Positions 13,960 through 31,794 of a stretch of DNA of 64,000 nt are shown in pieces. The notes beneath the pieces are model-generated. The model searched no databases, was not told the origin of the DNA, and saw nothing but the letters and a program-made list of their open reading frames with translations. Position 1 is the stretch's first letter. Each line of letters starts with the position of its first letter. This DNA is from Candidatus Hydrothermales bacterium. Its GTDB lineage: Bacteria; Hydrothermota; Hydrothermia; Hydrothermales; JAJRUZ01. Both the position numbers and the translations under genes were made by a program. The stretch covers positions 86,492 through 150,491 of the forward strand of contig JBCNUW010000001.1 in the NCBI GenBank assembly GCA_039630575.1, given 5' to 3'.

Positions 13960-14736
13960 ATGAAAAAAATTTTATTAATTTCAGGTTTGTTTTTAATACT
14001 TTTAGTTTTTATAGGTTGTCCTGAAGATGAAGAATTGCCAACACCTAATGCAAGAATTGCAAGCATTTTAGAGCAGGGTGAAGGAATAAGACTCGAATGG
14101 GATCCTGTTGAAGGTGCTGATGGTTACAGAGTTAGAGTTGACGACGAATTGAAGTATGAAGGAACAAGTACATATTTTGAGTGGAAAACACCTGCATTAA
14201 AAATAGAAGTTTATGCCTATGCTGGGGATAAGGAATCTACCCCAAGAGTTTTTGACTTCACACCTGTTTCAAGAACTTCTCAAGAATTATGGGAAAGAAG
14301 CGCAGCTGGTAACAGTGGCTATGGCTGGAATGCAGATGGAACAGGTTCAAGCTACTCTTTGGGAGATGCTGCAAATCATTCAAGAATAGATTTTTATTTG
14401 GATGACTTTACTGCTGGGACTGTAGACGTTTCAAATATTTACTTGGTAAGTCCTCATCACGGGGGATTTAACGATACTGAAACAGGTTTTGCTGTTGAAA
14501 CAGGTGGAACAGGTAATATAGCACCAGCTCCTGGAACCTATGATACTCCCAGACCACAAAGTCCAATAGTATCTGGAGGAACTTACTTTTTATGGATAGA
14601 TCACAGTAATAACGAGTGGACTAGTGATGATAATTTTGTTAAAATAAAGATAATTTCTATAGGCAATGATGGAAAGGTTGTATTTGACTATTGGTTCCAG
14701 AAACAAGGTGGACTTCGCTGGCTAAAGACAAATTAA
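13960..14736 (+). CDS. lipoprotein with fibronectin-III-like domain, unknown function
   Basis: Signal peptide + FIGC lipobox; RLEWDPVEGADGYRVRVDDE FN3-like segment. Confidence 0.6.
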   Translation: MKKILLISGLFLILLVFIGCPEDEELPTPNARIASILEQGEGIRLEWDPVEGADGYRVRVDDELKYEGTSTYFEWKTPALKIEVYAYAGDKESTPRVFDFTPVSRTSQELWERSAAGNSGYGWNADGTGSSYSLGDAANHSRIDFYLDDFTAGTVDVSNIYLVSPHHGGFNDTETGFAVETGGTGNIAPAPGTYDTPRPQSPIVSGGTYFLWIDHSNNEWTSDDNFVKIKIISIGNDGKVVFDYWFQKQGGLRWLKTN

Positions 14737-14833: not shown

Positions 14834-15844
14834 ATGAGAAAAACTTTATCAATTATTTCTTTTTTATTTTTGTTTTGTGTAAAAGAGCCTCACGAAGTAG
14901 GATGGTTCTTAACATTTAAAATACCTGGAAAAATGAAAAAGACTACTGTAAAAGAGGAAGTTCAAAAAAGCGATAAGTATAGAGTGATTGCAGATTCAGT
15001 TTTTAATGTTCAAAAGAAAATTCATTCAAATTTGAACTATTCTGGTTATGCTATTATAACTAGTGATACATTAAGGAGATTATTACCAAAGTTTATTGAT
15101 ACAACGCAAAGTGAATTTGGATCCTTAATTTTTCTTATTTATGGCGGGGCAAAGTATAAAGGAAATGTAATTACATCACCTTGCACATTAAAAACAAAAA
15201 TAATTTCCTATTTTTGGAACGATAATATTGATACCTTTGGGATTTTTAAAATTGACAGCATGAAAACTTCTGTTACTGGAAACTTTAAAATAACACACAG
15301 AATACCTTTTAACGATTTTCCTGCTGGACCCCATCTTTTTATAATTATTCCACAGATTTTAACAGGTAGTGCAAATTTTGATACAATTGAAACCTTCAAA
15401 GAGGGTCTTTTTGGAGCTAAAGTTTTAGGAGATAATATCATAACATTCTTGGACACAATAAAAAATGAAAGTGAAGACTTGAGAGAATTAGCAAGGCAAA
15501 ATAGAATTGAAAAGATTTTCTTACATGCCGATGTTACACATAGCTTTCCTGTGAGGTTTTTTCTATCTATTATGGTGTTTTCAAACAGCGACACCCTTAT
15601 GCCTATCAATAATCTTCCTTTTAAAAGCGCACCTAAAAACCAAGAGGGTGTATCAACTGATAGTACTAAATTTTCCATTGAAATAGATCTTTCTAAAGAT
15701 GTTGTAGATCTATCAAAAGATTCTTTAATATTTTATAAAGCTTTTGCAATTGTAGACAGTCAGGGTAATGCTTATATAAAACCTGAGGATTTCATAAAAT
15801 TAAAAGGATATCTCGGAGTAAAACTCTATACATTGGAGCGATAA
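14834..15844 (+). CDS. putative lipoprotein, unknown function
   Basis: 336 aa; N-terminal signal peptide with LFLFC lipobox; no recognisable catalytic motifs. Confidence 0.55.
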   Translation: MRKTLSIISFLFLFCVKEPHEVGWFLTFKIPGKMKKTTVKEEVQKSDKYRVIADSVFNVQKKIHSNLNYSGYAIITSDTLRRLLPKFIDTTQSEFGSLIFLIYGGAKYKGNVITSPCTLKTKIISYFWNDNIDTFGIFKIDSMKTSVTGNFKITHRIPFNDFPAGPHLFIIIPQILTGSANFDTIETFKEGLFGAKVLGDNIITFLDTIKNESEDLRELARQNRIEKIFLHADVTHSFPVRFFLSIMVFSNSDTLMPINNLPFKSAPKNQEGVSTDSTKFSIEIDLSKDVVDLSKDSLIFYKAFAIVDSQGNAYIKPEDFIKLKGYLGVKLYTLER

Positions 15845-15846
15845 AC

Positions 15847-18189
15847 ATGATTAAATTAGTTTTGTTTTTATATCCCCTCTATTTTACTCCTGGGGAAAAT
15901 TTTTTCCCAAGTTATCCATTTGCGAGTCAGAATATTTACTTTAATCCAGCCCTTATAGGTTCCGAATTTAACCCAAGTTTTACCTTTTCCTTTTTATCAA
16001 CCAACCTTGCTCTTACAAATAATGGATTATCTATATCACTATACAACGATATTATGTCTGCTCATGGTGATTCTATTACAAAATCTTTAAAAGAGAGCTT
16101 CTTTAAAAACATCGGGTCCTCATGGAAAACAAATCACCTTTCATATTTTTCACCCTTTTCATTTTCTTTAGGAAGATTTGCTTTTGGTTTAAGGGCTATC
16201 CAGGGTTTAATTTTGATGTTACCCGAACCATGGCTAAGGATTCTACTCTACGGAAATGAGCTCGATAAAACCTATTTTGCAAACAAAGACAATACTGCAT
16301 TTCAAGTTTTAAACTTAATTGAAACAAGAATAGGTTCCGGTTATGGTATTTTTTTAGATAAAGAGGAAAAGTACAGGTTAATTTATGGTTTAAATTTTGC
16401 CTTCTATATATCAGGACCTTACGTTGAGCTAAATGAAGTTAATGTAAGATTAAATTCTTACTATGACGGAATAACTGGGGATGACTATATTAAATTAAAG
16501 TTAGACACAACCTTTCTAAACTTTGGATATTCAATAGATTTAGGTTTTGGTTTAGAGTATAAAAAAATCCTAAATTTTTCTCTAGGTTTAAACAATATAA
16601 TATCAAATATAAACTTTTCAAAAGGTATTACCTATATCCACTATGGAAACCTTGACACTTTTTATTTAGGGGAGGGAATAGATTTTGATACTTTGTATAC
16701 TGACAAATTAGATACCATACCAGGTGCCTTCAGTGTAAAACTTCCTCTTATTTTGAAATTTTCAACCTTCTATAGACATCCAGATGATAAGTATAGATTA
16801 TTTTTAATATGGGAGCAGGGATTCAAATATACAGCATTTTCAACAAAAACACCGAGGATATCTCTTGGAGGGGAATATTTTGTTCATCCAAGAATACCAT
16901 TAAGATTTGGTTTTGTTTTTGGAGGCTACGAGGGGTTAAGTCTATCTTTAGGCGCAGGTATAGTAAGCAGAGAAATTTCCTCAATAAATATTGGAATTTC
17001 ACAACATAGGGGAATACTATTAGGTTCAAGGGGTATCTCATTCTCATTTTTAACGGAATTTCATTCCACATTTAAAGGAAAATTTAAATTTAAAATAATG
17101 GATTCTCTTACAAATAAACCTATAGCTAATGCTATACTTAAACTAACAGATAAAAACAATAAAAAAGTTTTTGAAGGTCAAAGTGATGTAAACGGTGAAA
17201 TAAGAGGAGAAATTAAAAAAGGCGAATATAAATTTGAAGTCGAAGCTGAGAATTATTACTCTAAGTCAGGATTTGTGGAAATAAAACAAGGTAGAGAAAA
17301 AGAAGAAAAAATTTTACTTAAAACAAGATTTGGTTATCTTACATTATATGTTAAAGATAGAGAGACTCTTAAGCCATTAGGTAATGTAGATGTTACTGTT
17401 CAGTACAAAGAAAAAACAACAAAAGTAAAAACTGATTCATCAGGTATATTAAAGCTTAGACTGGAAAGAGGAGAGTATAAATTTAAGTTTGAACATCCTG
17501 ACTATATGGTGAGGACAGAAAGCTACAAGGTTGAATCTGGAGTTCAAAAGGAAGTTGAAGTTTTCTTAGCAACTCGTTTTGGTACTGTTAAGGGTAAAGT
17601 TTACAATGCTCAGACACTTGAACCCCTTAAAGGTCAACTGGAAATTTATCCTGAAGGTAAGGACAGTGTTATAGAAAAGTTAGAAACAACTTTAGATGGT
17701 AGCTATAATGTAAAACTCTCTGAAGGGATATACAAATTCAAAGTAAAAGTTTCAAATTATATTCCTCAAGAAGCTTATGTTCAAGTAATTGGAGGGAAAG
17801 AATCTCTAAAAGACTTTGCTATGCTTAAGGAAAAAATGGTTTTTACTTTTAGAAACATCTATTTTGATTTTAATAAGGCTACAATAAGACCTGAATCTTA
17901 CCCAGTTTTAGATTCTATTGCCCTTATGTTAAAGGATAACCCAACTATAATTGTTGAAATAGGCGGACATACAGACGAGAGAGGAACAAGATCCTATAAC
18001 AAAAATTTAAGTCAGCAAAGAGCCGAATCTGTCAGAAATTACCTTTTTGAAAAACATGGTATAGAGCTTTTAAGACTCATTCCTTTAGGATACGGAGAAG
18101 ATTTACCTATTATAAAGAATGCTAAAACAGAGGAAGAGCATCAATTAAACAGAAGAGTAGAATTTAAAATTTTAGGAGAAAAGAGATGA
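15847..18189 (+). CDS. OmpA-family outer-membrane protein: N-terminal beta-barrel-like domain, three carboxypeptidase-regulatory-like (CarboxypepD_reg) repeats, C-terminal OmpA peptidoglycan-binding domain
   Basis: C-terminus FDFNKATIRPESYPVLDSIALMLKDNPTIIVEIGGHTDERGTRSYNKNLSQQRAESV...NRRVEF is a classic OmpA_C; three ~80-aa repeats with GEYKF / GIYKF cores; aromatic-rich alternating N-terminal ~400 aa. Confidence 0.8.
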   Translation: MIKLVLFLYPLYFTPGENFFPSYPFASQNIYFNPALIGSEFNPSFTFSFLSTNLALTNNGLSISLYNDIMSAHGDSITKSLKESFFKNIGSSWKTNHLSYFSPFSFSLGRFAFGLRAIQGLILMLPEPWLRILLYGNELDKTYFANKDNTAFQVLNLIETRIGSGYGIFLDKEEKYRLIYGLNFAFYISGPYVELNEVNVRLNSYYDGITGDDYIKLKLDTTFLNFGYSIDLGFGLEYKKILNFSLGLNNIISNINFSKGITYIHYGNLDTFYLGEGIDFDTLYTDKLDTIPGAFSVKLPLILKFSTFYRHPDDKYRLFLIWEQGFKYTAFSTKTPRISLGGEYFVHPRIPLRFGFVFGGYEGLSLSLGAGIVSREISSINIGISQHRGILLGSRGISFSFLTEFHSTFKGKFKFKIMDSLTNKPIANAILKLTDKNNKKVFEGQSDVNGEIRGEIKKGEYKFEVEAENYYSKSGFVEIKQGREKEEKILLKTRFGYLTLYVKDRETLKPLGNVDVTVQYKEKTTKVKTDSSGILKLRLERGEYKFKFEHPDYMVRTESYKVESGVQKEVEVFLATRFGTVKGKVYNAQTLEPLKGQLEIYPEGKDSVIEKLETTLDGSYNVKLSEGIYKFKVKVSNYIPQEAYVQVIGGKESLKDFAMLKEKMVFTFRNIYFDFNKATIRPESYPVLDSIALMLKDNPTIIVEIGGHTDERGTRSYNKNLSQQRAESVRNYLFEKHGIELLRLIPLGYGEDLPIIKNAKTEEEHQLNRRVEFKILGEKR

Positions 18190-21114
18190 TGGGTTAAAAA
18201 GGTTATTATTTTCAAAACCCAAGAGATTTTCCCTTTTTTGGATTCTGCTTTTTATATTTTCAAAAATATTAAGGTATCTTTCAAATAAATATTTAATTAC
18301 TTCGTAGCTATCTATCTTCTTAAAGATCTTTATAAATTTTCTTATAACAATAAGATGTAAAAAAGGAATGGGATATTTAAAGATCATTTCAAGAAACTTT
18401 TCTAATTCTTCAAAAGTTAGCCTTTTATCTTTTCTAACAAGCTTTAAGGATTGAATATATAGATTTTGCAATACCAAGTTTTTAGTTAAATCTTCAATTT
18501 CAGTTATACTAAAACTATTTATCAAACTTTCATCCTCTGACCCAAGAATAAGTAAAAAAAAGATGTAAGGGTCTTTTAAATAGGATAAGTTAATATATTT
18601 TGTTTCTATTTTATTTCCTTCATATAAAGTTTTAATTGAGTTGAAATAAAAAGAATAAAAAGAGTTATAAAATCTCTGTGAAAAGGAAATCCCAATTTTA
18701 TTGGACAATTTGAATAAATTTTCATTTTTAAAAATTAAACCTAAAAAACACTTTATCTTTTCAGATTCCATAACATTTTCATGGTTCATTTCCATAAAAG
18801 AAGATTTTTCAGCCTCCATTGATGCTTCTAAAGAATCTTCGAAGTTTCCGGTCCAGAATAGAAAGTCTGACAAATTTATTTTAAATTCTGAGTTAAAATA
18901 ACCCTTTTTCAAAAGATCTCTTTCAGACCTTTTTAAGTATAAAAGAGCATCAAAAAATTTTCCTTCTCTCTTTGCGATTTCAGAATAGAGCAAATTTATT
19001 TTAGCTAAAGTTACTTCATTCATAACTTTAACATCCTGAAGAAATTTTCTGGCAGACTCAAAAATTCCCTTTTCAATATAGGATTTAGCTAAACTGAAAT
19101 TAATTTCGTTCCATCTTGAGTCATTTTTGTCAGTCAAAAGTAAAGCTTTGTGTAAATTCGAAATAGCCTTTTCAAAATCTTTTGATAAATAAGAGTATAT
19201 ACCCTTAAGATAAAGATATTCTCCCATTTCAAGAGGTCTTATCTTGTGATTTTTTAGTACAACTTCTTCAATTTTTTCAAATATGAAAAAAGGGATAAAA
19301 CCTGTGCCCTCCTTTAGGAATTTGTCTAAAGTCTTTAAGGAATATTCCCAAGCTATGTCATATTTTTTTGCTTTTAGTGATTGTATAAATAAAAAGTATG
19401 GATTATTTTCAGCCCAATCTGTATATTTAAGGGTATCTACAATCTCTTCGTGTAATTTGTTTTTAATAGTGTCAGGTATAGAGTTATAAATAACTTCTCT
19501 AAGAAGAGGATTAATGAAATGTATAGTATTATTTTCTATTCTTAAAATATCCTTAGAAATAAGACCAACTAAGCTTTTTTCTATTTTTTCTGAAAAATGT
19601 TTCGAAAGTGGAGAATCTAAATCTAACTCTACTATCAAGCTCAATATTTCAAGTAAATCTTTTTCATATATTGTTAATTCGTTAACTTGTGAAAGGGCAA
19701 AGCTCATTAGAGATAAAGGAAGCTCTTCTTTTCCTTCAAGATCTTTACCTTTCAACTTTAAACTTTTCAAGTACTGTGCTATAAATAGTGGTATACCACC
19801 AGTGATTGTTGCAATTTTATAAATTGTTTCAAACTTAACATTCGGATAATATTTAGAAACTAATTCCATTACCTCATCTACATTTAGTGGTTTTAGATCA
19901 ATCTTATAAATGTTTGTTAAATCTAAATTAACTGGAAGGGTTCTTGCAGTTAAAATTATAAATGTACTATCAAGTTTATTTTTGATAAAGTTAATTAACT
20001 CAATCGAAAATGAATCAGCCCTATCTATGTCATCGAAAATTATAATTAACTTTCCTCTTTTTTTTGTTATTATTCTTAAAAAATCTAAAAAAAGATACTT
20101 TATTCTTTCACTTATATCTTTTTCTTCAGATGTTGAAGTTAATACATCCAAAAAAAATTCTATATATCTTTTCAGAAATTTAAACTCTTCCTTACTCATT
20201 GAATTTACAAGAAAAGTTTTTAATGGATAAAATGGTTCATCTGTATAAACTTCACACCCCCTTAGTTTTATTATGAAATTTTTTTCCTTTAAATTTTTAA
20301 CATAATTATCAAGAAAAAAGGTTTTCCCAACTCCTGCCTCACCTGTTAAAATAACAGATCTACTCTTTCCGGATTCTAAATCCTTTAAAAATTTATCAAA
20401 TAACTCCTTTGCATCTTTTCTCTCAACAAAAGGAACATCAAAAATTCCAGGTTCATACATCTTGCTTCCTGAAATCAATGTATAAATTTCCATTTTTTCT
20501 GTCTTTCCTTTTAACCTAATATTGCCCAAATATTCAAATTCAAAAAATTCAAGTGAAGCTTCATATATATCAAAAGAAACATATTTTTTATTTCCAAGAT
20601 TAGTAGAGAGTCTTTGAGCAGTGTTAACACAGTCACCAAGCGCAGTCAAAGACATTCCTTCTCCAGGTTCAACTTCACCAAAAAAAGACCATCCAGAAGA
20701 TATACCAATTCCGTAATCACACATTTCAGAAAGCTCACTTTTAATTAAATTTTCTATCTTAAAGGAAAAGTTTAAAACTTTAAAAACTAAATCTCTTTCG
20801 AATTCGTTATGACCAAAGATAAAAAGACCACCTTCATGAAAATTAAACTTTTCCAAAAAAGCGTCATAGGATCTGGCTAATCTTTCTACTTCGTATAAAA
20901 AATTTGTAAATTTGTAAACTAAATTTAAATCTATTTTAACTTTCCATTTTAAAGTTACAAAAAGAGAAATAATATATTTTTTTCTTAAAATAAACGGGAT
21001 TTTTGTTGGTCTTGTATCTTTAAGTTTTTGTCCACAATTAGTACAAAAATTGTATGAGTTTTTTAAATTTACATTACATCTCTTACACTGAACTATTTCT
21101 ATAGTACCATGCAT
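18172..21114 (-). CDS. multidomain signalling protein: N-terminal CxxC-x10-CxxC zinc ribbon, degenerate class III nucleotidyl-cyclase domain, STAND/AAA_16 P-loop NTPase, C-terminal TPR repeats
   Basis: CKRCN...CTNCG; cyclase domain keeps ALGDCVNTAQRL (Asn/Arg motif) but has K/L and H where the two metal-binding Asp normally sit (VYKFTNF, FIFGHNEF); Walker A LTGEAGVGKTFF; TPR-like helical repeats in the last ~450 aa. Confidence 0.8.
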   Translation of the reverse strand: MHGTIEIVQCKRCNVNLKNSYNFCTNCGQKLKDTRPTKIPFILRKKYIISLFVTLKWKVKIDLNLVYKFTNFLYEVERLARSYDAFLEKFNFHEGGLFIFGHNEFERDLVFKVLNFSFKIENLIKSELSEMCDYGIGISSGWSFFGEVEPGEGMSLTALGDCVNTAQRLSTNLGNKKYVSFDIYEASLEFFEFEYLGNIRLKGKTEKMEIYTLISGSKMYEPGIFDVPFVERKDAKELFDKFLKDLESGKSRSVILTGEAGVGKTFFLDNYVKNLKEKNFIIKLRGCEVYTDEPFYPLKTFLVNSMSKEEFKFLKRYIEFFLDVLTSTSEEKDISERIKYLFLDFLRIITKKRGKLIIIFDDIDRADSFSIELINFIKNKLDSTFIILTARTLPVNLDLTNIYKIDLKPLNVDEVMELVSKYYPNVKFETIYKIATITGGIPLFIAQYLKSLKLKGKDLEGKEELPLSLMSFALSQVNELTIYEKDLLEILSLIVELDLDSPLSKHFSEKIEKSLVGLISKDILRIENNTIHFINPLLREVIYNSIPDTIKNKLHEEIVDTLKYTDWAENNPYFLFIQSLKAKKYDIAWEYSLKTLDKFLKEGTGFIPFFIFEKIEEVVLKNHKIRPLEMGEYLYLKGIYSYLSKDFEKAISNLHKALLLTDKNDSRWNEINFSLAKSYIEKGIFESARKFLQDVKVMNEVTLAKINLLYSEIAKREGKFFDALLYLKRSERDLLKKGYFNSEFKINLSDFLFWTGNFEDSLEASMEAEKSSFMEMNHENVMESEKIKCFLGLIFKNENLFKLSNKIGISFSQRFYNSFYSFYFNSIKTLYEGNKIETKYINLSYLKDPYIFFLLILGSEDESLINSFSITEIEDLTKNLVLQNLYIQSLKLVRKDKRLTFEELEKFLEMIFKYPIPFLHLIVIRKFIKIFKKIDSYEVIKYLFERYLNIFENIKSRIQKRENLLGFENNNLFNPSSLFS

Positions 21115-21117
21115 GTT

Positions 21118-23352
21118 TTAAAGTCTACGCATAGCCATAGAGGCAGCAAGTTTAACTTGTCCATCTGGATCATTTAAAAGTTTTTTCAAAAATTCCATAA
21201 CCTTTTCAGACTTATGCCTTGATAAAATTCTAACAACTTCAACTCTTATCTCAGATGGAAACTTTGGTTTTTTTAAGAAAGTTTTGTCAAAAAGAATTTT
21301 TTCAATTATTGGATAAGCTTTATCAGGTATGTGTTTGATCAAAAAATTTATTGAAGGTATGATAAATTCTCTTGATTCATCTTTATCAAGGGTATTTTTA
21401 ATAAATTGATAAATTAAATCAACACTTTTAAATGTCCCAATTTTTAAAAGAGTTCTCAAACATTCAAGTTTTACATCCTTATTCTGTGTTTCCAAATAGA
21501 CTTCTAATATATCATCTTCAACAGATGAAACATTATATTTTGTAAAGGTCTTTAGCACCTCTAATTTTGTACTGTCTTCTCCCATTTTCAATATTTTAAT
21601 TAAAAGAGGTATACCTTCCTCATCTTTAACTTCTCCTAGAATAATTGCTACATCACGAAGATTTACAAATGATTTACTTTCAAGATCTCTATAAAATTCC
21701 CTTCTATACTCAGCTGGAAAATGAGACAGAATTTTAGCTATCCTCTTTTTTATTGTAATATTTTCCATTTCAGGAAAAATCTCCTTAAGAGCTACAAATC
21801 CCTCTTTTCCCGCAGATAAAAATGCTTCTTCTATTTCCTTCTCTGTCTCATCATCCCATAATTGAGTTAAAAGTACTCTTGTTGAAAATTGAGTACCAAT
21901 TTTCCCAAGTGCCCTTATAGCAACTTTTTTCTTTGATCCCGAATCTAATAAATCTCTAAATGCCTTCTGTATATCTTCAACAATCAATAAAAGATCTTTT
22001 TCTTTAGCAACCATAACAATCTTTTCTAGTCCTTCAATATATGAGAAAATCACAGCAGGATGTTCCTCTTCAAAAACTTTTATTTTCATTAAATTTATTA
22101 TTTTTTCAACAGATCCTAGCTTTTCGGCTCTTAAAAAAGTAATTGCAAAAGAAATTAAAGCATCAATTGCAGAAATCCTTTCATTTTCATTCTCATTTGT
22201 GAGTTTTTCTATAATGGGCTGAAGGAAAGATTCCATCTCTGAAGCAGCTATTCCACCTTCAAGCTCTCTTTCTAAAAACTTCAATTTTTTCTCTCCTGTT
22301 ATTACAAGCTTTTTTTCTCTTGCTATCCTTTCAAGTAATTCAGTTTCTTTGTCTTCATGTGATTTTTTAGTTGTTGTATAAATTTTTCTTTTTTGGAGTA
22401 TGTCCTTTAACATATCTGGCAACTCGCTTTCTCCTTCCTTTAATCCCGAAAAAAGCAATACAAGTTCTCTATCATCCATTTCATCAAGAATTTTTCTTAT
22501 TGACTCCGCTATCTCTCTATACTTTTCAGATTCCTCTATAAACCTTATTTTAAGAGCTGGAGATAAAATTTTTAGTATATGTGTAATAACAAGAGAAAAA
22601 TTATGTGAACCATCTTCTCCGTATTTTTCTATTAAATAGTGAGCAACAATTTTTAAAGCTGAAATTAAGTCCTTAACCTTTAAACTATCAAATTCTTTTT
22701 TTAAATTTAGACCCATCATATCTAAAAAAATATCTTTTACTAACTCCTCCTTTTCAATATCTTGTAACTTATTATATTCTCTTAAAAAACCGTCAAATTT
22801 ATCTTGAACCTCTTTACTTAATATTTTCTCTTCTTCTTTTTTAATTTCCGAAACAACTTTAGATAAATGATCCTTTTCTTCTAAAGTCAAATCTAATTTT
22901 AATTCTCTTTCTGTAGAACTTAATTTGAACTTTACCTCATTTAATCTAATCCTTTCAACATTTCTCTGCAGAAGTAGTTCAGATGGGTCTTTAACCTCTA
23001 AGAACTTTTTTAAAGGTAAAGTAAAAATTTCAAAGAAAATTCTTAGATCATCCTGAATTACATCCCTGTCAATCGAAATACTTTCAATTTTAAGTCTAAA
23101 GAAATGTTTCGCCATAGATTGAATAGCTGGAATTTTGCTTATATCAATCCTTGTATCTTCAAAAAGTATGATATTTTCAAAGAAATAAACGGATATTGTG
23201 TTATACTTTAATGGGAATTTTTTAATTATCTCGAGAACCTGCTCAGCTGCTTTATTGAAAGCAGGGTGCCCTGCTGGGTACATCTTTGAATATGTTAACC
23301 CTACTCCTATCTGTTTTAAAAGTTCAATTACTAAGGATTCTATCTGTAACAT
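21118..23352 (-). CDS. HEAT/PBS-lyase-repeat protein (744 aa), unknown function
   Basis: Repeated alpha-helical HEAT_2-like units (LLNDPDGQVKLAASMAMRRL; VAIRALGKIG; ERISAIDALISFA); overlaps both neighbouring ORFs, so probably translationally coupled. Confidence 0.7.
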   Translation of the reverse strand: MLQIESLVIELLKQIGVGLTYSKMYPAGHPAFNKAAEQVLEIIKKFPLKYNTISVYFFENIILFEDTRIDISKIPAIQSMAKHFFRLKIESISIDRDVIQDDLRIFFEIFTLPLKKFLEVKDPSELLLQRNVERIRLNEVKFKLSSTERELKLDLTLEEKDHLSKVVSEIKKEEEKILSKEVQDKFDGFLREYNKLQDIEKEELVKDIFLDMMGLNLKKEFDSLKVKDLISALKIVAHYLIEKYGEDGSHNFSLVITHILKILSPALKIRFIEESEKYREIAESIRKILDEMDDRELVLLFSGLKEGESELPDMLKDILQKRKIYTTTKKSHEDKETELLERIAREKKLVITGEKKLKFLERELEGGIAASEMESFLQPIIEKLTNENENERISAIDALISFAITFLRAEKLGSVEKIINLMKIKVFEEEHPAVIFSYIEGLEKIVMVAKEKDLLLIVEDIQKAFRDLLDSGSKKKVAIRALGKIGTQFSTRVLLTQLWDDETEKEIEEAFLSAGKEGFVALKEIFPEMENITIKKRIAKILSHFPAEYRREFYRDLESKSFVNLRDVAIILGEVKDEEGIPLLIKILKMGEDSTKLEVLKTFTKYNVSSVEDDILEVYLETQNKDVKLECLRTLLKIGTFKSVDLIYQFIKNTLDKDESREFIIPSINFLIKHIPDKAYPIIEKILFDKTFLKKPKFPSEIRVEVVRILSRHKSEKVMEFLKKLLNDPDGQVKLAASMAMRRL

Positions 23353-23959
23353 TTAAAGTTTCCTCCTTTAAAAGATAAAAATCTATATTTTGAACTACTT
23401 TTTTCTCATATAAGTTTTTTGGAAAAACTTTCTCAATTTCACCAAGTAAAACTATCTCATCTTTACTTATTAATGATTTTAAATAATTAATCATACTAAT
23501 CAATTCAGAAGAGATAATTATATAGGATTTTTCTCCTAATCTTAGAGGATAAACAAGGCATCTCTCATATATACCTATCATCTTCATTCTAATATCTTTT
23601 CTTATAACATCTGAATTAAAAAATTCTCTAACATCAATCAAAAAATTTATAAATTCATTAATATCGAGACTTTTACCAAGTCCAAATATAATCTCAATTT
23701 CATCACCTATGTATTGATTTACATAACCTCCATTTTTTTCAGCTATCATTTTTAAATTTGAAAATAAAAGAGAAAGATTAGATCTTAATTCAAAAAGTTC
23801 AATTCTCTCAGTTAAATTGGTAAAACCTATAATATCCATCCTGAAAACAAGAACATCTACTTCTATAGGTCCTTTCTTGATATAAAATCCGCAACTCTGA
23901 CAAAAATTTCCATTACTATCAATTCGAGAACCACACTTTAGACAAATCTCACTTAGCAT
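23324..23959 (-). CDS. small zinc-ribbon + class III nucleotidyl cyclase domain protein (211 aa)
   Basis: CLKCG...CQSCG ribbon; VDVLVFRMDIIGFTNL and GGYVNQYIGDEIEIIFG keep both metal-binding Asp of adenylyl/guanylyl cyclases; no GDxVNxAxR motif in the C-terminal half. Confidence 0.75.
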   Translation of the reverse strand: MLSEICLKCGSRIDSNGNFCQSCGFYIKKGPIEVDVLVFRMDIIGFTNLTERIELFELRSNLSLLFSNLKMIAEKNGGYVNQYIGDEIEIIFGLGKSLDINEFINFLIDVREFFNSDVIRKDIRMKMIGIYERCLVYPLRLGEKSYIIISSELISMINYLKSLISKDEIVLLGEIEKVFPKNLYEKKVVQNIDFYLLKEETLNVTDRILSN

Positions 23960-24067
23960 TTTTACTATATTTTAAAGATTTTGCTTTAAAAATTCAACTC
24001 CTTTTGAAGAAAGGTTCAAAAACAAAATAAAAAATTAAAAAAAGGAAAATAATAATATAGAAGAGTT

Positions 24068-25939
24068 TCATTTTTCACCTCTTTTTGAAATAATAGCTAT
24101 TAAACCACCAACAAAAATTAAAAAAGTTCCAATCCAAACAAGTTGAATTAGAGGATTGTAAAAAAATTGAACATAAACAGTTTTATCTTCCTCCCAACCT
24201 TGTATTACAGCGTAAATATCACCATATAAAAGAGGTAAAACATCCATCTCTGCTGAGGGTTGTTCCCAGTTATGATAAAACCTTAAAGCAGGATAAAGCT
24301 CTCCCTCTAATTTACCTTTATTTTTTATTAAGAATTTACCTTTAACTTCGTCATAATTATGTCCAGAACCGAAAGTAAGTCCCTCATATTCTATTTCAAA
24401 ATTTTTGAATTTTACTTTTTCACCTGTTTTAAATTTCATTTCTTTTTGTTCCTTAAATCCATAAGAGGATATTATGCCTATTGCTGATATAACTATTCCT
24501 AAATGAATTAAAAAGGGACCTGTTTTACTTATTAAAAATTTTACTTTATTTATTTCTTTAAAATAGTAATACAAATTTGATAAAAAGGCGAAGGAGGATA
24601 AACCGTAGCCAAGCACAGCTCCAGGATGACGGGAAATTTTAATAAAAACAATAGAAGAAATAATTACGCTTATAAGTAAGGAGAGAAAAAGAAAAATCCT
24701 TGATGGATTTTTATAAGTGTAAATGAAAATACCAAGAAGCAAAAGGATTAAAAGAAAAAAAGGACCAGTTGATTTAACAAAAAATAAAGACGAAACAGTT
24801 ATTTTTTGACCTGTGAAGAGCTCTGAAATTATAGGAAAAAATGTGCCGAATAGTGTTATCAGAGCGATTGCTATAAGAGAAAAAACAAATATCAAAATAA
24901 AGCCTTCTAATCCCAAAAAATTAAACCTTTCACTCTCTTTTGAAAATTTATTCTTGAATTTAATAACAGCTAAAATTAGAAAAGAAAGATTTATAAAAAC
25001 AAAAGCTCCAAAATAAGGTCCTATTTCACTTTCAGCAAAGGCATGAACAGAAGATAAAACTCCGCTCCTTGTGATATAAGTTCCTGTTAAAACAAGCACA
25101 AAAGTTATTATAATTAAGGAAAGATTCCATAACTTTAAAGTACTTTTTGTTTCTTGAATAAAAAGAGTATGAACAAAAGCTGTAGATGTTAACCATGGTA
25201 AAAAGGAGGCATTTTCTACAGGATCCCATGCCCAGTAACCTCCCCAACCAAGCTCAATATAGGCCCACCTACCTCCAACTACAATTCCAATTGATAAAAA
25301 TAGCCACGAAATTAACGTCCATTTTCTAATCTCCAAACCCCAATCCTTTCGTTCGCCTTTTATAAAAATAGCAACAGCATAGCCTAAAGGTATTGCAAAA
25401 CCCACATATCCTAGATAAATTGCAACAGGGTGAACTAACATCCACACATTTTGAAGAAGTGGATTTAAACCCTTACCATCAGGAGGAGAAAAAGGAAGTG
25501 TTTTAAAAGGATTGGTAAAAAAGAGAGTTATAAATATAAAGAAAAGGTTTATTATAGAAATTACAGCATAAGAAATAATTCTGTGGAAATTTTCATTTTT
25601 GACTGAAAACATGTAAACAAGAAAGTATATAGATAGTATCAAAATCCAAAAGAGCATAGAACCATCCATACCAGCCCAGAAGGCTGAGAATTTATAAATA
25701 AAAGGCAAGTTTCTTGATGTATAATTTGCTACATATAAGACTCTAAAATCAGAAGATAAAAGAAGATACCAAAGGATAATAGAGGAGAGAATTACAAATA
25801 TTGATCCTAAAACAACAGCTCTTTTTCCAGCTTCAACAAATACATTATCCTTTTTTATAAAAAAATAAATAAATAAAAATGAGGATAACAAAAAACAAAT
25901 AAAAGAACCAGTTAATGCAGAGTATCCAAGATCTGCCAT
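24068..25939 (-). CDS. ccmF: cytochrome c-type biogenesis heme lyase, CcmF/NrfE family
   Basis: 623-aa polytopic protein with the tryptophan-rich WWD signature WAYIELGWGGYWAWDPVENASFLPWL. Confidence 0.75.
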   Translation of the reverse strand: MADLGYSALTGSFICFLLSSFLFIYFFIKKDNVFVEAGKRAVVLGSIFVILSSIILWYLLLSSDFRVLYVANYTSRNLPFIYKFSAFWAGMDGSMLFWILILSIYFLVYMFSVKNENFHRIISYAVISIINLFFIFITLFFTNPFKTLPFSPPDGKGLNPLLQNVWMLVHPVAIYLGYVGFAIPLGYAVAIFIKGERKDWGLEIRKWTLISWLFLSIGIVVGGRWAYIELGWGGYWAWDPVENASFLPWLTSTAFVHTLFIQETKSTLKLWNLSLIIITFVLVLTGTYITRSGVLSSVHAFAESEIGPYFGAFVFINLSFLILAVIKFKNKFSKESERFNFLGLEGFILIFVFSLIAIALITLFGTFFPIISELFTGQKITVSSLFFVKSTGPFFLLILLLLGIFIYTYKNPSRIFLFLSLLISVIISSIVFIKISRHPGAVLGYGLSSFAFLSNLYYYFKEINKVKFLISKTGPFLIHLGIVISAIGIISSYGFKEQKEMKFKTGEKVKFKNFEIEYEGLTFGSGHNYDEVKGKFLIKNKGKLEGELYPALRFYHNWEQPSAEMDVLPLLYGDIYAVIQGWEEDKTVYVQFFYNPLIQLVWIGTFLIFVGGLIAIISKRGEK

Positions 25940-31215: not shown

Positions 31216-31794
31216 TTACTGACCTGATGTAAGAACTATTGGAATATTTCTCTTAGAACCAAAACCACCGATTGCATAACCTGAAGCTGCTTGTCCTGCT
31301 GCAGGTGTCCATTGTGCCGGGTTGTTTGGGTCAAGATCATATGAACCATACTGAATCATTCCAGCATTAGCAGCATTGTAAGCTGGGTCAAAAACACCAT
31401 TTCTATCGTTATCAACACCTCCAGGACCACTTTGAAAAGCATTTGTAGCAGCTCTAACAGGATTGTGAAAATCTACAGGCAGCAAAATTGGTCCAGTGGT
31501 AGTAGGCCTAAGACCAGATGCAGCTCCAGCCACTGATGTATTGTCACCCACTGGAGGGAGTCCTACAGCTTGCCTTGCTTGATCAACAGTAATAGCAAAA
31601 TTTTGTGGATAAAATCCTTCTGTAGAGGTTGAGAATGCTTCTGCAGCTGTTTGTGAAGTTTTCATATTACTCTGAACAGAAGCATCTTTTGCCTTTCCTA
31701 CCATAGCAATGAAGTTGGGTATAGCTATAGCAGCAAGAATACCAATGATTACTACTACGATGAGTAGCTCTATTAAGGTAAAGCCTTTCTTCAT
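31216..31794 (-). CDS. type IV pilin (prepilin N-terminal cleavage/methylation domain), low-complexity A/G/P/T/N-rich body
   Basis: MKKGFTLIELLIVVVIIGILAAIAIP class III signal with G-1/F+1; coding GC clearly above the window average; GGGAGG SD. Confidence 0.85.
   Translation of the reverse strand: MKKGFTLIELLIVVVIIGILAAIAIPNFIAMVGKAKDASVQSNMKTSQTAAEAFSTSTEGFYPQNFAITVDQARQAVGLPPVGDNTSVAGAASGLRPTTTGPILLPVDFHNPVRAATNAFQSGPGGVDNDRNGVFDPAYNAANAGMIQYGSYDLDPNNPAQWTPAAGQAASGYAIGGFGSKRNIPIVLTSGQ

What the first reader, a model, noticed from the sequence alone, without database searches (positions are those of the whole stretch)
18172..23959. Three-gene operon: Zn-ribbon cyclase, HEAT-repeat protein, Zn-ribbon/pseudo-cyclase/STAND NTPase/TPR protein
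Three overlapping, presumably translationally coupled minus-strand genes. The first is a 211-aa protein with an N-terminal CxxC-x10-CxxC ribbon fused to a class III nucleotidyl-cyclase domain. The second is a 744-aa HEAT/PBS-lyase-repeat protein. The third is a 980-aa protein with the same type of ribbon, a second cyclase-homology domain, a P-loop STAND NTPase (LTGEAGVGKT) and a long TPR array. STAND+TPR architectures are typical of signal-integrating switches, including antiviral Avs-type proteins. Cyclase-domain systems are known in cNMP signalling and defence (Pycsar-like). I do not recognise this combination, with a stand-alone mini-cyclase and an interposed HEAT protein, as a described system
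Basis: partly seen in the sequence, partly recalled or inferred. Interest (0 to 1): 0.85.

Follow-up and report, generated by a model that had tools for sequence, protein, structure and literature searches.

The report
Split two-gene adenylate cyclase with STAND switch
Three co-transcribed genes of an uncultivated hot-spring bacterium (phylum WOR-3) appear to encode a cyclic-AMP-making enzyme whose active site is split between a small protein and the head of a large ATP-driven switch protein, plus a conserved HEAT-repeat partner; such a split is textbook for animal cyclases, but I found no bacterial example in the papers I searched.

Summary

New result: the two cyclase domains are reciprocal half-enzymes. 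Across 29 small and 26 large orthologues in about five clades, the small protein always keeps both metal-binding Asp and has no conserved transition-state Asn; the Arg survives in one sequence. The large protein never has the Asp pair but keeps the substrate Lys (25/26), Thr (26/26), Asn (26/26) and Arg (25/26). This matches the C1/C2 division of mammalian adenylate cyclases and sGC alpha/beta. It predicts one composite, ATP-specific (Lys/Thr) site in a heterodimer.

The trio is conserved in two gene orders. Both cyclase genes are absent together where only the HEAT gene remains. The HEAT protein's unannotated N-terminal domain is fused elsewhere to GGDEF-AAA_16.

The locus lies in conserved housekeeping synteny with no PADLOC match, so a defence role is not supported.

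Verdict: a new variant of the known cyclase-STAND-TPR family. Heterodimerisation and cAMP synthesis are inferred, not shown.

The parts
23324..23959 (-). Small cyclase subunit (211 aa): N-terminal Zn ribbon plus a C1-like class III cyclase-homology domain that keeps both metal-binding Asp (D42, D86)
   Evidence: ORF. Pfam Guanylate_cyc 20.8 bits. The family profile hits CyaB (3r5g) at E 1.2e-5 over the N-terminal half. The orthologue in L035 scores 86 bits over nearly the whole Pfam model. All top-50 Foldseek hits of the low-confidence model are cyclase domains. Residue tables.
23891..23944 (-). Zn ribbon of the small subunit (C6-x2-C9-x10-C20-x2-C23)
   Evidence: Read directly from the sequence. 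Sub-threshold DZR and Zn_Ribbon_1 hits. A CxxC...CxxC ribbon was found in all 7 small subunits checked, one or more from each clade; the L018 spacer is x9.
21118..23352 (-). HEAT-repeat partner protein (744 aa)
   Evidence: HEAT_2 51.9 bits. Orthologues P0033-P0041. It lies next to the two cyclase genes in both gene orders.
22912..23352 (-). N-terminal 147-aa alpha/beta domain of the HEAT protein with a near-invariant Y25-P-x-G-H29-P motif; no Pfam model and no solved structural relative detected
21121..21915 (-). C-terminal HEAT-repeat array of the partner protein (approximately residues 480-744)
   Evidence: HEAT_2, HEAT_PBS and HEAT hits. Conserved block in alignment A3.
18172..21114 (-). 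Large subunit (980 aa): Zn ribbon, C2-like cyclase domain, AAA_16 STAND NTPase and a TPR-like helical arm
   Evidence: ORF. Pfam AAA_16 54.4 bits. 100% identical to a protein of a Candidatus Hydrothermales MAG; distant homologues are cyclase-AAA_16-TPR proteins.
20440..20985 (-). C2-like cyclase-homology domain (approximately residues 44-225). It lacks both metal-binding Asp (T54, E94) and keeps K89, T157, N164, R168 and the LKGK motif
   Evidence: The family profile hits bPAC (5mbg) at E 1.4e-7, mainly over the C-terminal half. Orthologues score 44.9 and 39.2 bits on Pfam Guanylate_cyc. Residue tables.
19759..20430 (-). STAND (AAA_16 / MalT-type) NTPase module, Walker A GEAGVGKT at residue 258 and Walker B LIIIFDD at residue 356
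   Evidence: AAA_16, AAA_22, ATPase_2, NACHT and NB-ARC hits. Walker A is conserved in all clades.
18175..19437 (-). C-terminal helical (TPR-like) sensor arm
   Evidence: TPR_2 22.6 bits, below cut-off, in the window protein. TPR_12 scores 42.3 and 93.7 bits, and TPR_MalT hits sub-threshold (34.9 bits, cut-off 45), in orthologues.

Best explanation
The locus encodes a three-protein second-messenger module.

Shown by sequence analysis:
- Each domain carries only one half of the catalytic residues.
- The small protein supplies the two metal-binding Asp.
- The large protein supplies the substrate-specifying Lys and Thr, the transition-state Asn and Arg, and the phosphate-binding Lys.

Inferred:
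- The two domains form a head-to-tail heterodimer with a single composite active site and one degenerate site. This is the arrangement of C1/C2 in mammalian adenylate cyclases and of sGC alpha/beta.
- The Lys/Thr pair predicts ATP as substrate and cAMP as product.
- The C2-like half is the effector head of a MalT/AAA_16-type STAND NTPase. Ligand or partner binding to the TPR arm and nucleotide-dependent oligomerisation would therefore control whether productive heterodimers form.
- The HEAT protein acts as a sensor or adaptor that feeds into the STAND protein. Its N-terminal domain sits in the input position of GGDEF, histidine-kinase and PilB-like proteins. Together with HEAT repeats it replaces the TPR arm in GGDEF-AAA_16 fusion proteins.
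- The origin was probably a duplication of a ZnR-cyclase module from an ordinary ZnR-cyclase-AAA_16-TPR protein, followed by reciprocal loss of catalytic residues.
For: 1. Reciprocal retention of catalytic residues.
- Small proteins: Asp1 and Asp2 present in 29/29. The Asn position is not conserved (S, N, D, Q, E, L or F). Arg is kept in only one sequence.
- Large proteins: Asp1 present in 0/23 and Asp2 in 0/26. Lys 25/26, Thr 26/26, Asn 26/26, Arg 25/26.
- This holds although the domains have diverged to 18-27% identity between clades.
- PDB profile searches show the same asymmetry. The small family matches cyclases over the Asp-bearing N-terminal half, the large family over the GDxVNxAxR half.

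2. Genomic linkage.
- The trio occurs as mini-HEAT-STAND in the window, L001-L009, L014, L016, L021-L027, L034 and L038. Some of these contigs are truncated and show only two of the three genes.
- It occurs as STAND-mini-HEAT in L017, L018, L028-L031, L035-L037 and L039.
- Gene overlaps in both orders suggest translational coupling.

3. Joint absence of the two cyclase genes.
- In L011 (same CcmF/OmpA site), L020 (same PurH/GuaA site as L018) and L019, and upstream of the HEAT gene in the short contig L032 (downstream side not covered), the HEAT gene is present and no cyclase gene is found.
- The only locus with one cyclase gene missing is L010. It keeps a 70-aa remnant of the large gene, and its HEAT protein is 874/880 identical to that of L024, where the gene is intact. 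L010 is therefore a recent strain-level deletion.

4. Fusion evidence. Proteins of about 1400 aa from Desulfobacterales and Ca. Kappaea have the order GGDEF, AAA_16, two copies of the HEAT protein's N-domain, then HEAT_2.

5. Ancestral architecture. Complete ZnR-cyclase-AAA_16-TPR proteins exist, for example P0021 and P0018.

6. Established knowledge. In class III dimers each active site uses the Asp pair of one chain and the Lys, Asp/Thr, Asn and Arg of the other. PMC9552081 states that both monomers contribute to the sites and that bacterial enzymes homodimerise.
Against: - No physical or catalytic test was possible.
- The AF2 model of the small protein is poor (pLDDT 49), so its full fold rests on secondary-structure order, Foldseek hits and the Pfam-positive orthologues.
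- In the window itself the small protein is just below the Pfam threshold, and the large protein's cyclase domain is invisible to Pfam.
- One clade (L018) has a more degenerate large subunit: the Lys is lost and Arg is replaced by Lys.
- The alignment register in the degenerate Asn/Arg stretch of the small proteins is uncertain by one residue (versus 81).
- No cAMP receptor gene lies in the neighbourhood.
- The role of the HEAT protein is inferred only from linkage and fusions.
- The HEAT gene persists without the cyclases, so the module is not obligatory for it.
Confidence: 0.55

Rival explanations
1. Both cyclase-like domains are catalytically dead pseudo-enzymes. They would serve only as nucleotide-binding or protein-interaction modules on a STAND/HEAT scaffold.
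For: Neither chain has a full catalytic set. Inactive cNMP-cyclase domains fused to NTPase-based systems have been described (PMC7159879). The window proteins score poorly on Pfam Guanylate_cyc.
Against: Relaxed selection would erode residues at random. Instead, each catalytic residue is retained in exactly one of the two partners, over about five clades and down to about 20% identity. The two genes also appear and disappear together.
Confidence: 0.17
2. An antiviral STAND (Avs-like) or Pycsar-like defence system. The STAND-TPR protein would sense a phage protein and trigger cyclic-nucleotide synthesis.
For: The effector-STAND-TPR architecture resembles Avs proteins. Cyclases generate the signal in Pycsar systems.
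Against: PADLOC gives no meaningful hit: best scores are SspF 15.6 bits on the P-loop and HEAT-ARM 21 bits. The flanks are housekeeping genes and are syntenic among genomes whose orthologues are 51-55% identical. There is no adjacent effector with TIR, transmembrane or nuclease features. GC content (0.27-0.28) is within the window's range. The distribution looks vertical within WOR-3. In one clade the trio is followed directly by a che cluster.
Confidence: 0.04
3. The two cyclase proteins act separately. The small protein would homodimerise into a weak or unconventional cyclase. The large protein's domain would be a regulatory nucleotide-binding domain of a STAND switch with some other output.
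For: Bacterial class III cyclases are described as homodimers (PMC9552081). L010 keeps the small gene without the large one.
Against: A homodimer of the small protein would lack Asn and Arg, and in most clades also the substrate Lys (Gln in clades A and B), in both sites. A homodimer of the large protein would lack all metal ligands. L010 is a recent strain-level deletion. The large protein carries no other output domain.
Confidence: 0.12

Closest known systems
Cyclase-AAA_16(STAND)-TPR proteins ('class 3 adenylate cyclase/TPR repeat protein'; from my own knowledge the M. tuberculosis Rv0386/Rv1358/Rv2488c type)
   Same: The large protein has the same domain order: (Zn ribbon), class III cyclase domain, AAA_16 NTPase, TPR. 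These proteins are its nearest homologues outside WOR-3.
   Different: Canonical members such as P0005, P0018 and P0021 keep all catalytic residues in one chain. Here both metal-binding Asp are missing, and a separate small cyclase gene and a HEAT gene are always adjacent. There is no LuxR/GerE HTH domain.
Mammalian membrane adenylate cyclase C1/C2 pseudoheterodimer and soluble guanylate cyclase alpha/beta
   Same: One domain contributes the two metal-binding Asp. The other contributes the substrate-specifying residues and the transition-state Asn and Arg. The result is one active and one degenerate site (residue pattern; C1/C2 background in PMC9552081).
   Different: This case is bacterial and cytosolic. 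The two halves are on separate polypeptides, as in sGC, but one half is fused to a STAND NTPase. There is no sequence evidence of direct descent from the eukaryotic C1 or C2 lineages, so the division of labour probably arose independently.
Heterodimeric rhodopsin-guanylyl cyclases of chytrid fungi (RGC/NeoR)
   Same: Two separately encoded class III cyclase proteins that function only as heterodimers (PMC8815786).
   Different: These are eukaryotic, with membrane rhodopsin sensors and a GTP substrate. They have no STAND or HEAT components.
Rhodospirillum centenum guanylyl cyclase GcyA with GcyB/GcyC
   Same: A bacterial nucleotide cyclase that depends on additional subunits encoded in an operon (PMC4681086).
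   Different: GcyB and GcyC are described there as non-catalytic subunits, not as a complementary half-site cyclase domain. There is no STAND or HEAT protein.
GGDEF-AAA_16-(YPxGHP domain x2)-HEAT fusion proteins (P0065, P0066, P0155; Desulfobacterales, Ca. Kappaea)
   Same: The logic is the same, on one chain: a nucleotide-cyclase-fold effector, an AAA_16 switch, then the HEAT protein's N-domain and HEAT repeats.
   Different: The effector is a diguanylate cyclase domain rather than a split class III cyclase. These proteins are annotated only as 'diguanylate cyclase', and I found no characterisation of them.

Membership tests
Class III nucleotidyl cyclase (Pfam PF00211, cyclase-homology domain) | Sequence or fold homology to the catalytic domain, in the small protein | tested here: met
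   Window protein 20.8 bits against a cut-off of 21.9. Family profile E 1.2e-5 to CyaB. L035 orthologue 86 bits over positions 5-171 of 183. All top-50 Foldseek hits are cyclase domains, from a low-confidence model.
Class III nucleotidyl cyclase (Pfam PF00211, cyclase-homology domain) | Sequence homology to the catalytic domain, in the N-terminus of the large protein | tested here: met
   No Pfam hit in the window protein. The family profile hits bPAC at E 1.4e-7. Orthologues score 44.9 and 39.2 bits. It aligns along its full length with canonical domains.
Class III nucleotidyl cyclase (Pfam PF00211, cyclase-homology domain) | Complete catalytic set (two Asp, Lys, Asp/Thr, Asn, Arg) within one chain, as in homodimeric bacterial enzymes | tested here: not met
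   The small protein has D and D but lacks Asn and Arg. The large protein has K, T, N and R but lacks both Asp.
C1/C2-type heterodimeric cyclase (mammalian AC, sGC alpha/beta) | Reciprocal distribution of metal-binding versus substrate and transition-state residues between two different cyclase domains | tested here: met
   29/29 small and 25-26/26 large sequences follow the pattern.
C1/C2-type heterodimeric cyclase (mammalian AC, sGC alpha/beta) | Physical heterodimer with one active site; activity requires both chains | not testable with these tools
No multimer prediction or biochemistry was available.
STAND NTPase, AAA_16/MalT-like | P-loop NTPase with Walker A and B motifs matching AAA_16, followed by a helical repeat sensor arm | tested here: met
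   AAA_16 54.4 bits. Walker A GEAGVGKT and Walker B LIIIFDD. The TPR signal is sub-threshold in the window protein but reaches 42-94 bits in orthologues.
Rv0386-type cyclase-ATPase-TPR-LuxR regulators | C-terminal LuxR/GerE helix-turn-helix domain | tested here: not met
   No GerE hit in the 980-aa protein at E<=0.1.
Avs (antiviral STAND) defence proteins | Match to known Avs/AVAST models and location among defence or mobile genes | tested here: not met
   PADLOC returned only P-loop noise. The context is housekeeping and syntenic.
Pycsar | PycC-type cyclase plus an adjacent effector with a cNMP-binding domain (transmembrane or TIR) | tested here: not met
   No PADLOC hit for either cyclase protein. 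No such effector is present in the window or in any related locus.
HEAT-repeat proteins (PF13646) | HEAT_2 repeats above the Pfam threshold | tested here: met
   51.9 bits against a cut-off of 27.7.

The most novel reading that the evidence does not exclude
The three proteins assemble into a STAND-gated 'cyclase signalosome'. The HEAT protein would sense a signal through its previously undescribed YPxGHP domain. It would then license ATP-dependent oligomerisation of the STAND protein, and oligomerisation would recruit the free C1-like subunit to complete otherwise incomplete active sites. That would be an all-or-none way of switching cAMP synthesis on. It would also be an independent bacterial reinvention of the C1/C2 heterodimer, using STAND-controlled subunit assembly in place of G-protein control.
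Probability: 0.3. Interest if true: 0.75.

Novelty: new variant of a known kind. Interest (0 to 1): 0.6.

Why it matters
A review of the field states that bacterial class III cyclases homodimerise into two equivalent sites (PMC9552081). The asymmetric, single-site C1/C2 design is regarded there as a eukaryotic invention that arose by gene duplication and fusion.

A naturally split pair of bacterial cyclase genes, maintained by selection, would show that the same division of labour evolved independently in prokaryotes. It would offer a simple soluble model for studying heterodimer assembly as a regulatory step. It would also link cyclase output to a STAND switch in ordinary physiology rather than immunity.

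The work also exposes a widespread unannotated signalling domain (339 representative clusters) with a confident predicted fold and no solved relative. That domain is tied to cyclic-nucleotide enzymes by both gene neighbourhood and gene fusion.

Practically, the pair could be tried as an assembly-dependent cAMP generator for synthetic biology.

Tried and rejected
- The AF2 model of the small protein from an 8-sequence alignment gave pLDDT 49. I used it only for secondary-structure order and a cautious Foldseek search.
- hhalign of the two shallow family profiles aligned only the Zn ribbons. It says nothing about the cyclase domains.
- The Rfam and tRNA scans of the window found nothing.
- The promoter and terminator scans were at chance level.
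- The GTDB scan with the HEAT alignment returned only 5 loci, all from WOR-3. A more diverse alignment (A7) had no searchable conserved stretch.
- The afdb50 fold library was unavailable.
- The stored text of the Shenoy 2004 actinobacterial cyclase survey was truncated and gave nothing on heterodimers.
- Literature searches for a natural two-gene bacterial class III heterodimer found none. The library lacks many subscription papers, so absence is not proof.
- Defence was considered and rejected (see rivals).
- A link to chemotaxis holds only in clade B, so I do not claim it for the window organism.
Full report
**Observation.** The window carries three tightly packed minus-strand ORFs at exactly the reported coordinates: 23324-23959 (211 aa), 21118-23352 (744 aa) and 18172-21114 (980 aa). 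The first two overlap by 29 nt. The second and third are separated by 3 nt rather than overlapping. The 980-aa product is 100% identical to a protein of a Candidatus Hydrothermales (candidate division WOR-3) metagenome-assembled genome.

- The 211-aa protein has sub-threshold zinc-ribbon hits and Guanylate_cyc at 20.8 bits (cut-off 21.9), covering only the N-terminal half of the model.
- The 744-aa protein has HEAT_2 at 51.9 bits.
- The 980-aa protein has AAA_16 at 54.4 bits, many weaker STAND-type P-loop hits and a sub-threshold TPR_2 hit. It has no Guanylate_cyc hit.

Both ribbons are CxxC-x10-CxxC. Walker A (GEAGVGKT) and Walker B (LIIIFDD) are present.

**Are the cyclase-like regions really cyclase domains?** Yes.
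- A profile of the eight known small-protein orthologues hits solved class III cyclases: CyaB 3r5g at E 1.2e-5, plus bPAC and others.
- A profile of the N-termini of four large-protein orthologues hits bPAC at E 1.4e-7.
- Less diverged relatives fetched later pass Pfam's own thresholds. The small protein of L035 scores 86 bits over model positions 5-171 of 183. The large proteins of L016 and L035 score 44.9 and 39.2 bits, with TPR_12 up to 93.7 bits.
- The AF2 model of the window's small protein is poor (pLDDT 49). Its strand and helix order is that of the cyclase fold, and all 50 best Foldseek PDB hits are class III catalytic domains aligned over 170-200 columns. I treat this only as consistent evidence.

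**The central finding: reciprocal half-sites.** The PDB searches were already asymmetric. The small family matched cyclases only over the N-terminal, Asp-bearing half. The large family matched mainly over the C-terminal GDxVNxAxR half.

I aligned 29 small and 26 large domains with canonical cyclase-AAA_16-TPR proteins (P0005, P0018, P0021) by MAFFT. The residues are as follows:

| Catalytic position | Small protein | Large protein |
|---|---|---|
| First metal Asp | D in 29/29 | D in 0/23 (T, S, R, I, L, F, K, G or E) |
| Second metal Asp | D in 29/29 | D in 0/26 (E, K, N, R or Y, after a one-residue insertion) |
| Substrate Lys | Q in clades A and B; K or R elsewhere | K in 25/26 |
| Thr, seven residues before the Asn | I, L, M or S | T in 26/26 |
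| Transition-state Asn | not conserved (S, N, D, Q, E, L or F) | N in 26/26 |
| Transition-state Arg | kept in one sequence only | R in 25/26 |
| C-terminal LKGK motif | absent | mostly present |

In the window proteins the residues are D42 and D86 (small) and T54, K89, E94, T157, N164 and R168 (large). The register of the degenerate Asn/Arg stretch in the small proteins is uncertain by one residue. In neither register is an Asn or Arg conserved.

The domains have diverged to 18-27% identity between clades. Random decay of two pseudo-enzymes would therefore not leave each catalytic residue preserved in exactly one partner.

In class III dimers each active site is built from the Asp pair of one chain and the Lys, Asp/Thr, Asn and Arg of the other. 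This is established knowledge, and PMC9552081 summarises that both monomers contribute. The pattern therefore predicts a heterodimer with one complete site and one dead site. That is the C1/C2 arrangement of mammalian adenylate cyclases and of sGC alpha/beta. The Lys/Thr pair is the adenine-specifying combination. bPAC shows the same Thr-x6-Asn spacing in the alignment, so cAMP is the predicted product. This last step is inference.

**Conservation and linkage.** I looked up the contigs encoding homologues. I also ran a GTDB scan and a metagenome scan, then searched all 39 loci with local HMMs.

The three genes occur together in two orders:
- mini-HEAT-STAND in the window, L001-L009, L014, L016, L021-L027, L034 and L038. 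Some of these contigs are truncated and show only two of the three genes.
- STAND-mini-HEAT in L017, L018, L028-L031, L035-L037 and L039.

Short gene overlaps are seen in both orders. Retaining the same three genes through a rearrangement is strong evidence of functional coupling.

The exceptions are informative:
- L011 is the closest relative (HEAT protein 73% identical). It has the same TsaD-TrxR-CcmF / OmpA site and keeps only the HEAT gene.
- L020 has PurH-HEAT-GuaA, whereas L018 has PurH-STAND-mini-HEAT-GuaA.
- L019 and L032 also have the HEAT gene alone. In L032 only about 2.2 kb upstream is covered.
- The two cyclase genes are thus absent together, as expected for an obligate pair. The HEAT protein evidently also has a life of its own.
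- Only L010 has the small gene without the large one. It retains a 70-aa fusion of the large gene's ribbon and C-terminal tail. Its HEAT protein is 874/880 identical to that of L024, where the large gene is intact. L010 is therefore a recent strain-level deletion.

**The HEAT protein.** Only its C-terminal third is recognised by Pfam. Its first 147 residues form a conserved block with a near-invariant Y-P-x-G-H-P motif.
- A profile of this block against 1.84 billion representative proteins found 339 proteins at E<1e-3.
- Of 55 proteins scanned, 37 share the N-domain plus HEAT_2 architecture.
- In other proteins the domain sits N-terminal to a PAS histidine kinase or to a PilB-like MshEN-T2SSE ATPase.
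- In a group of about 1400-aa proteins from Desulfobacterales and Ca. Kappaea it follows GGDEF and AAA_16. The order there is GGDEF, AAA_16, two N-domain copies, then HEAT_2.

GGDEF domains share the cyclase fold, and GGDEF replacing a cNMP cyclase on NTPase-based signalling proteins has been noted before (PMC7159879). These fusions join a cyclase-fold effector, an AAA_16 switch and the HEAT module on one chain. They support a physical and functional link between the window's HEAT protein and its STAND-cyclase neighbour. They also place the HEAT module where the TPR sensor arm normally sits.

**Context and the defence hypothesis.** The flanks are PhoB/PhoR, PstCAB, PhoU, two unannotated genes and an OmpA-family protein on one side. 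On the other side are CcmF, a thioredoxin-reductase-like flavoprotein, TsaD, RecF, DciA and GyrB. The same neighbourhood surrounds the orthologues in genomes where the proteins are only 51-55% identical.
- PADLOC gives only P-loop and HEAT noise.
- NCBIfam gives a partial match to the AAA_16 region of TOMM kinase/cyclase proteins and nothing specific.
- GC content is unremarkable.
- There is no effector gene.

I therefore reject an Avs- or Pycsar-like defence role as the primary reading.

In one clade (L007, L010, L014/L038, L016, L024, L025) the trio is followed directly by cheW-cheY-cheA-cheC/X, an 815-aa TPR gene and a DUF4388-TPR gene. In L016 there is no intergenic gap. This hints at a link to a chemosensory or motility circuit in that clade. 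No che genes accompany the trio in the window's clade.

**Comparison with what is known.** The large protein belongs to the well-populated cyclase-AAA_16-TPR family. Its distant homologues are named 'class 3 adenylate cyclase/TPR repeat protein', some with the same N-terminal ribbon. The architecture as such is not new.

What differs:
- The loss of both metal ligands from the large protein.
- The constant presence of a free complementary half-cyclase.
- The constant HEAT partner.

A recent review states that bacterial class III cyclases homodimerise into two productive centres (PMC9552081). Separately encoded obligate heterodimers are documented for chytrid rhodopsin cyclases (PMC8815786) and, from general knowledge, for sGC. 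R. centenum has a cyclase with extra non-catalytic subunits (PMC4681086). My literature searches found no natural bacterial two-gene C1/C2-like pair. The searchable library is incomplete, so this is not proof of absence.

**Verdict.**
- The most likely mechanism is a STAND-controlled, split heterodimeric adenylate cyclase with a HEAT-repeat sensor or adaptor.
- Shown: homology, residue complementarity, linkage, joint absence of the two cyclase genes, and the gene fusions.
- Inferred: heterodimerisation, cAMP as product, regulation by oligomerisation, and the HEAT protein's role.
- I rate it a new variant of a known kind, with interest about 0.6.

Noticed in passing
window 23994-24071 (-): A 25-codon hydrophobic micro-ORF (MKLFYIIIFLFLIFYFVFEPFFKRS) whose ATG overlaps the ccmF stop codon (ATGA). 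The peptide, with a conserved FVFEPF(F/L)+basic tail, is present at the same place in L001, L004, L011, L021 and L023. It was not among the called genes listed for L001, L004 and L011. It is probably a small membrane protein coupled to CcmF.
   Followed up: partly
L007 13815-18754; L016 11908-18652; also L010, L014/L038, L024, L025: In one WOR-3 clade the trio is followed co-directionally, with gaps of 0-50 nt, by CheW, CheY, CheA, CheC/CheX, an 815-aa TPR protein and a DUF4388+TPR protein. No receptor (MCP) gene is in the cluster. This suggests a chemosensory circuit coupled to the cyclase module in that clade only.
   Followed up: partly
P0065, P0066, P0155 (about 1340-1430 aa; Desulfobacterales, Ca. 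Kappaea frigidicola): Single-chain proteins with the order GGDEF, AAA_16, YPxGHP domain (two copies detected in P0065 and P0066, one in P0155), then HEAT_2 (Pfam hit in P0065 and P0066 only). About 16 such representative clusters exist, annotated only as 'diguanylate cyclase'. I found no description of a STAND-controlled diguanylate cyclase of this kind.
   Followed up: partly
L010 5047-5259 versus L024 10603-13578: L010 carries a 70-aa in-frame remnant of the large cyclase gene, with the Zn ribbon fused to the C-terminal tail. In L024, where the HEAT protein is 99.3% identical, the gene is intact (991 aa). This is a within-population deletion. In L007 the same gene is split into 792 + 148 aa ORFs, and in L013 the HEAT gene is split into two ORFs. 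These splits may be assembly errors or pseudogenes.
   Followed up: partly
L018 10613-12511; L019 9294-11291: A GAF-GAF-GGDEF diguanylate cyclase gene lies just downstream of the HEAT gene in two distant loci, one with and one without the class III cyclase pair. This is another tie between this HEAT family and cyclic-nucleotide signalling.
   Followed up: no
window 18172-18189: The 3' end of the 980-aa gene overlaps by 18 nt the 3' end of the convergent 780-aa OmpA-family gene (15847-18189, +; CarboxypepD_reg repeats plus OmpA). No terminator-like hairpin lies between them.
   Followed up: no
window 13960-14736 (+) and 14834-15844 (+): Two ORFs (258 and 336 aa) upstream of the OmpA-family gene have no Pfam match. 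ORFs of similar size (248-258 and 338-340 aa), also without Pfam matches, lie at the same position in L001 and L004; L011 has a 336-aa ORF and a shorter 172-aa one.
   Followed up: no
P0104 (1040 aa), P0107 (961 aa): The YPxGHP domain also occurs at the N-terminus of a PilB-like MshEN-T2SSE ATPase and of a PAS histidine kinase. This is the position expected of an input domain. The window has a pilin-like gene (N_methyl motif) at 31216-31794 (-).
   Followed up: no
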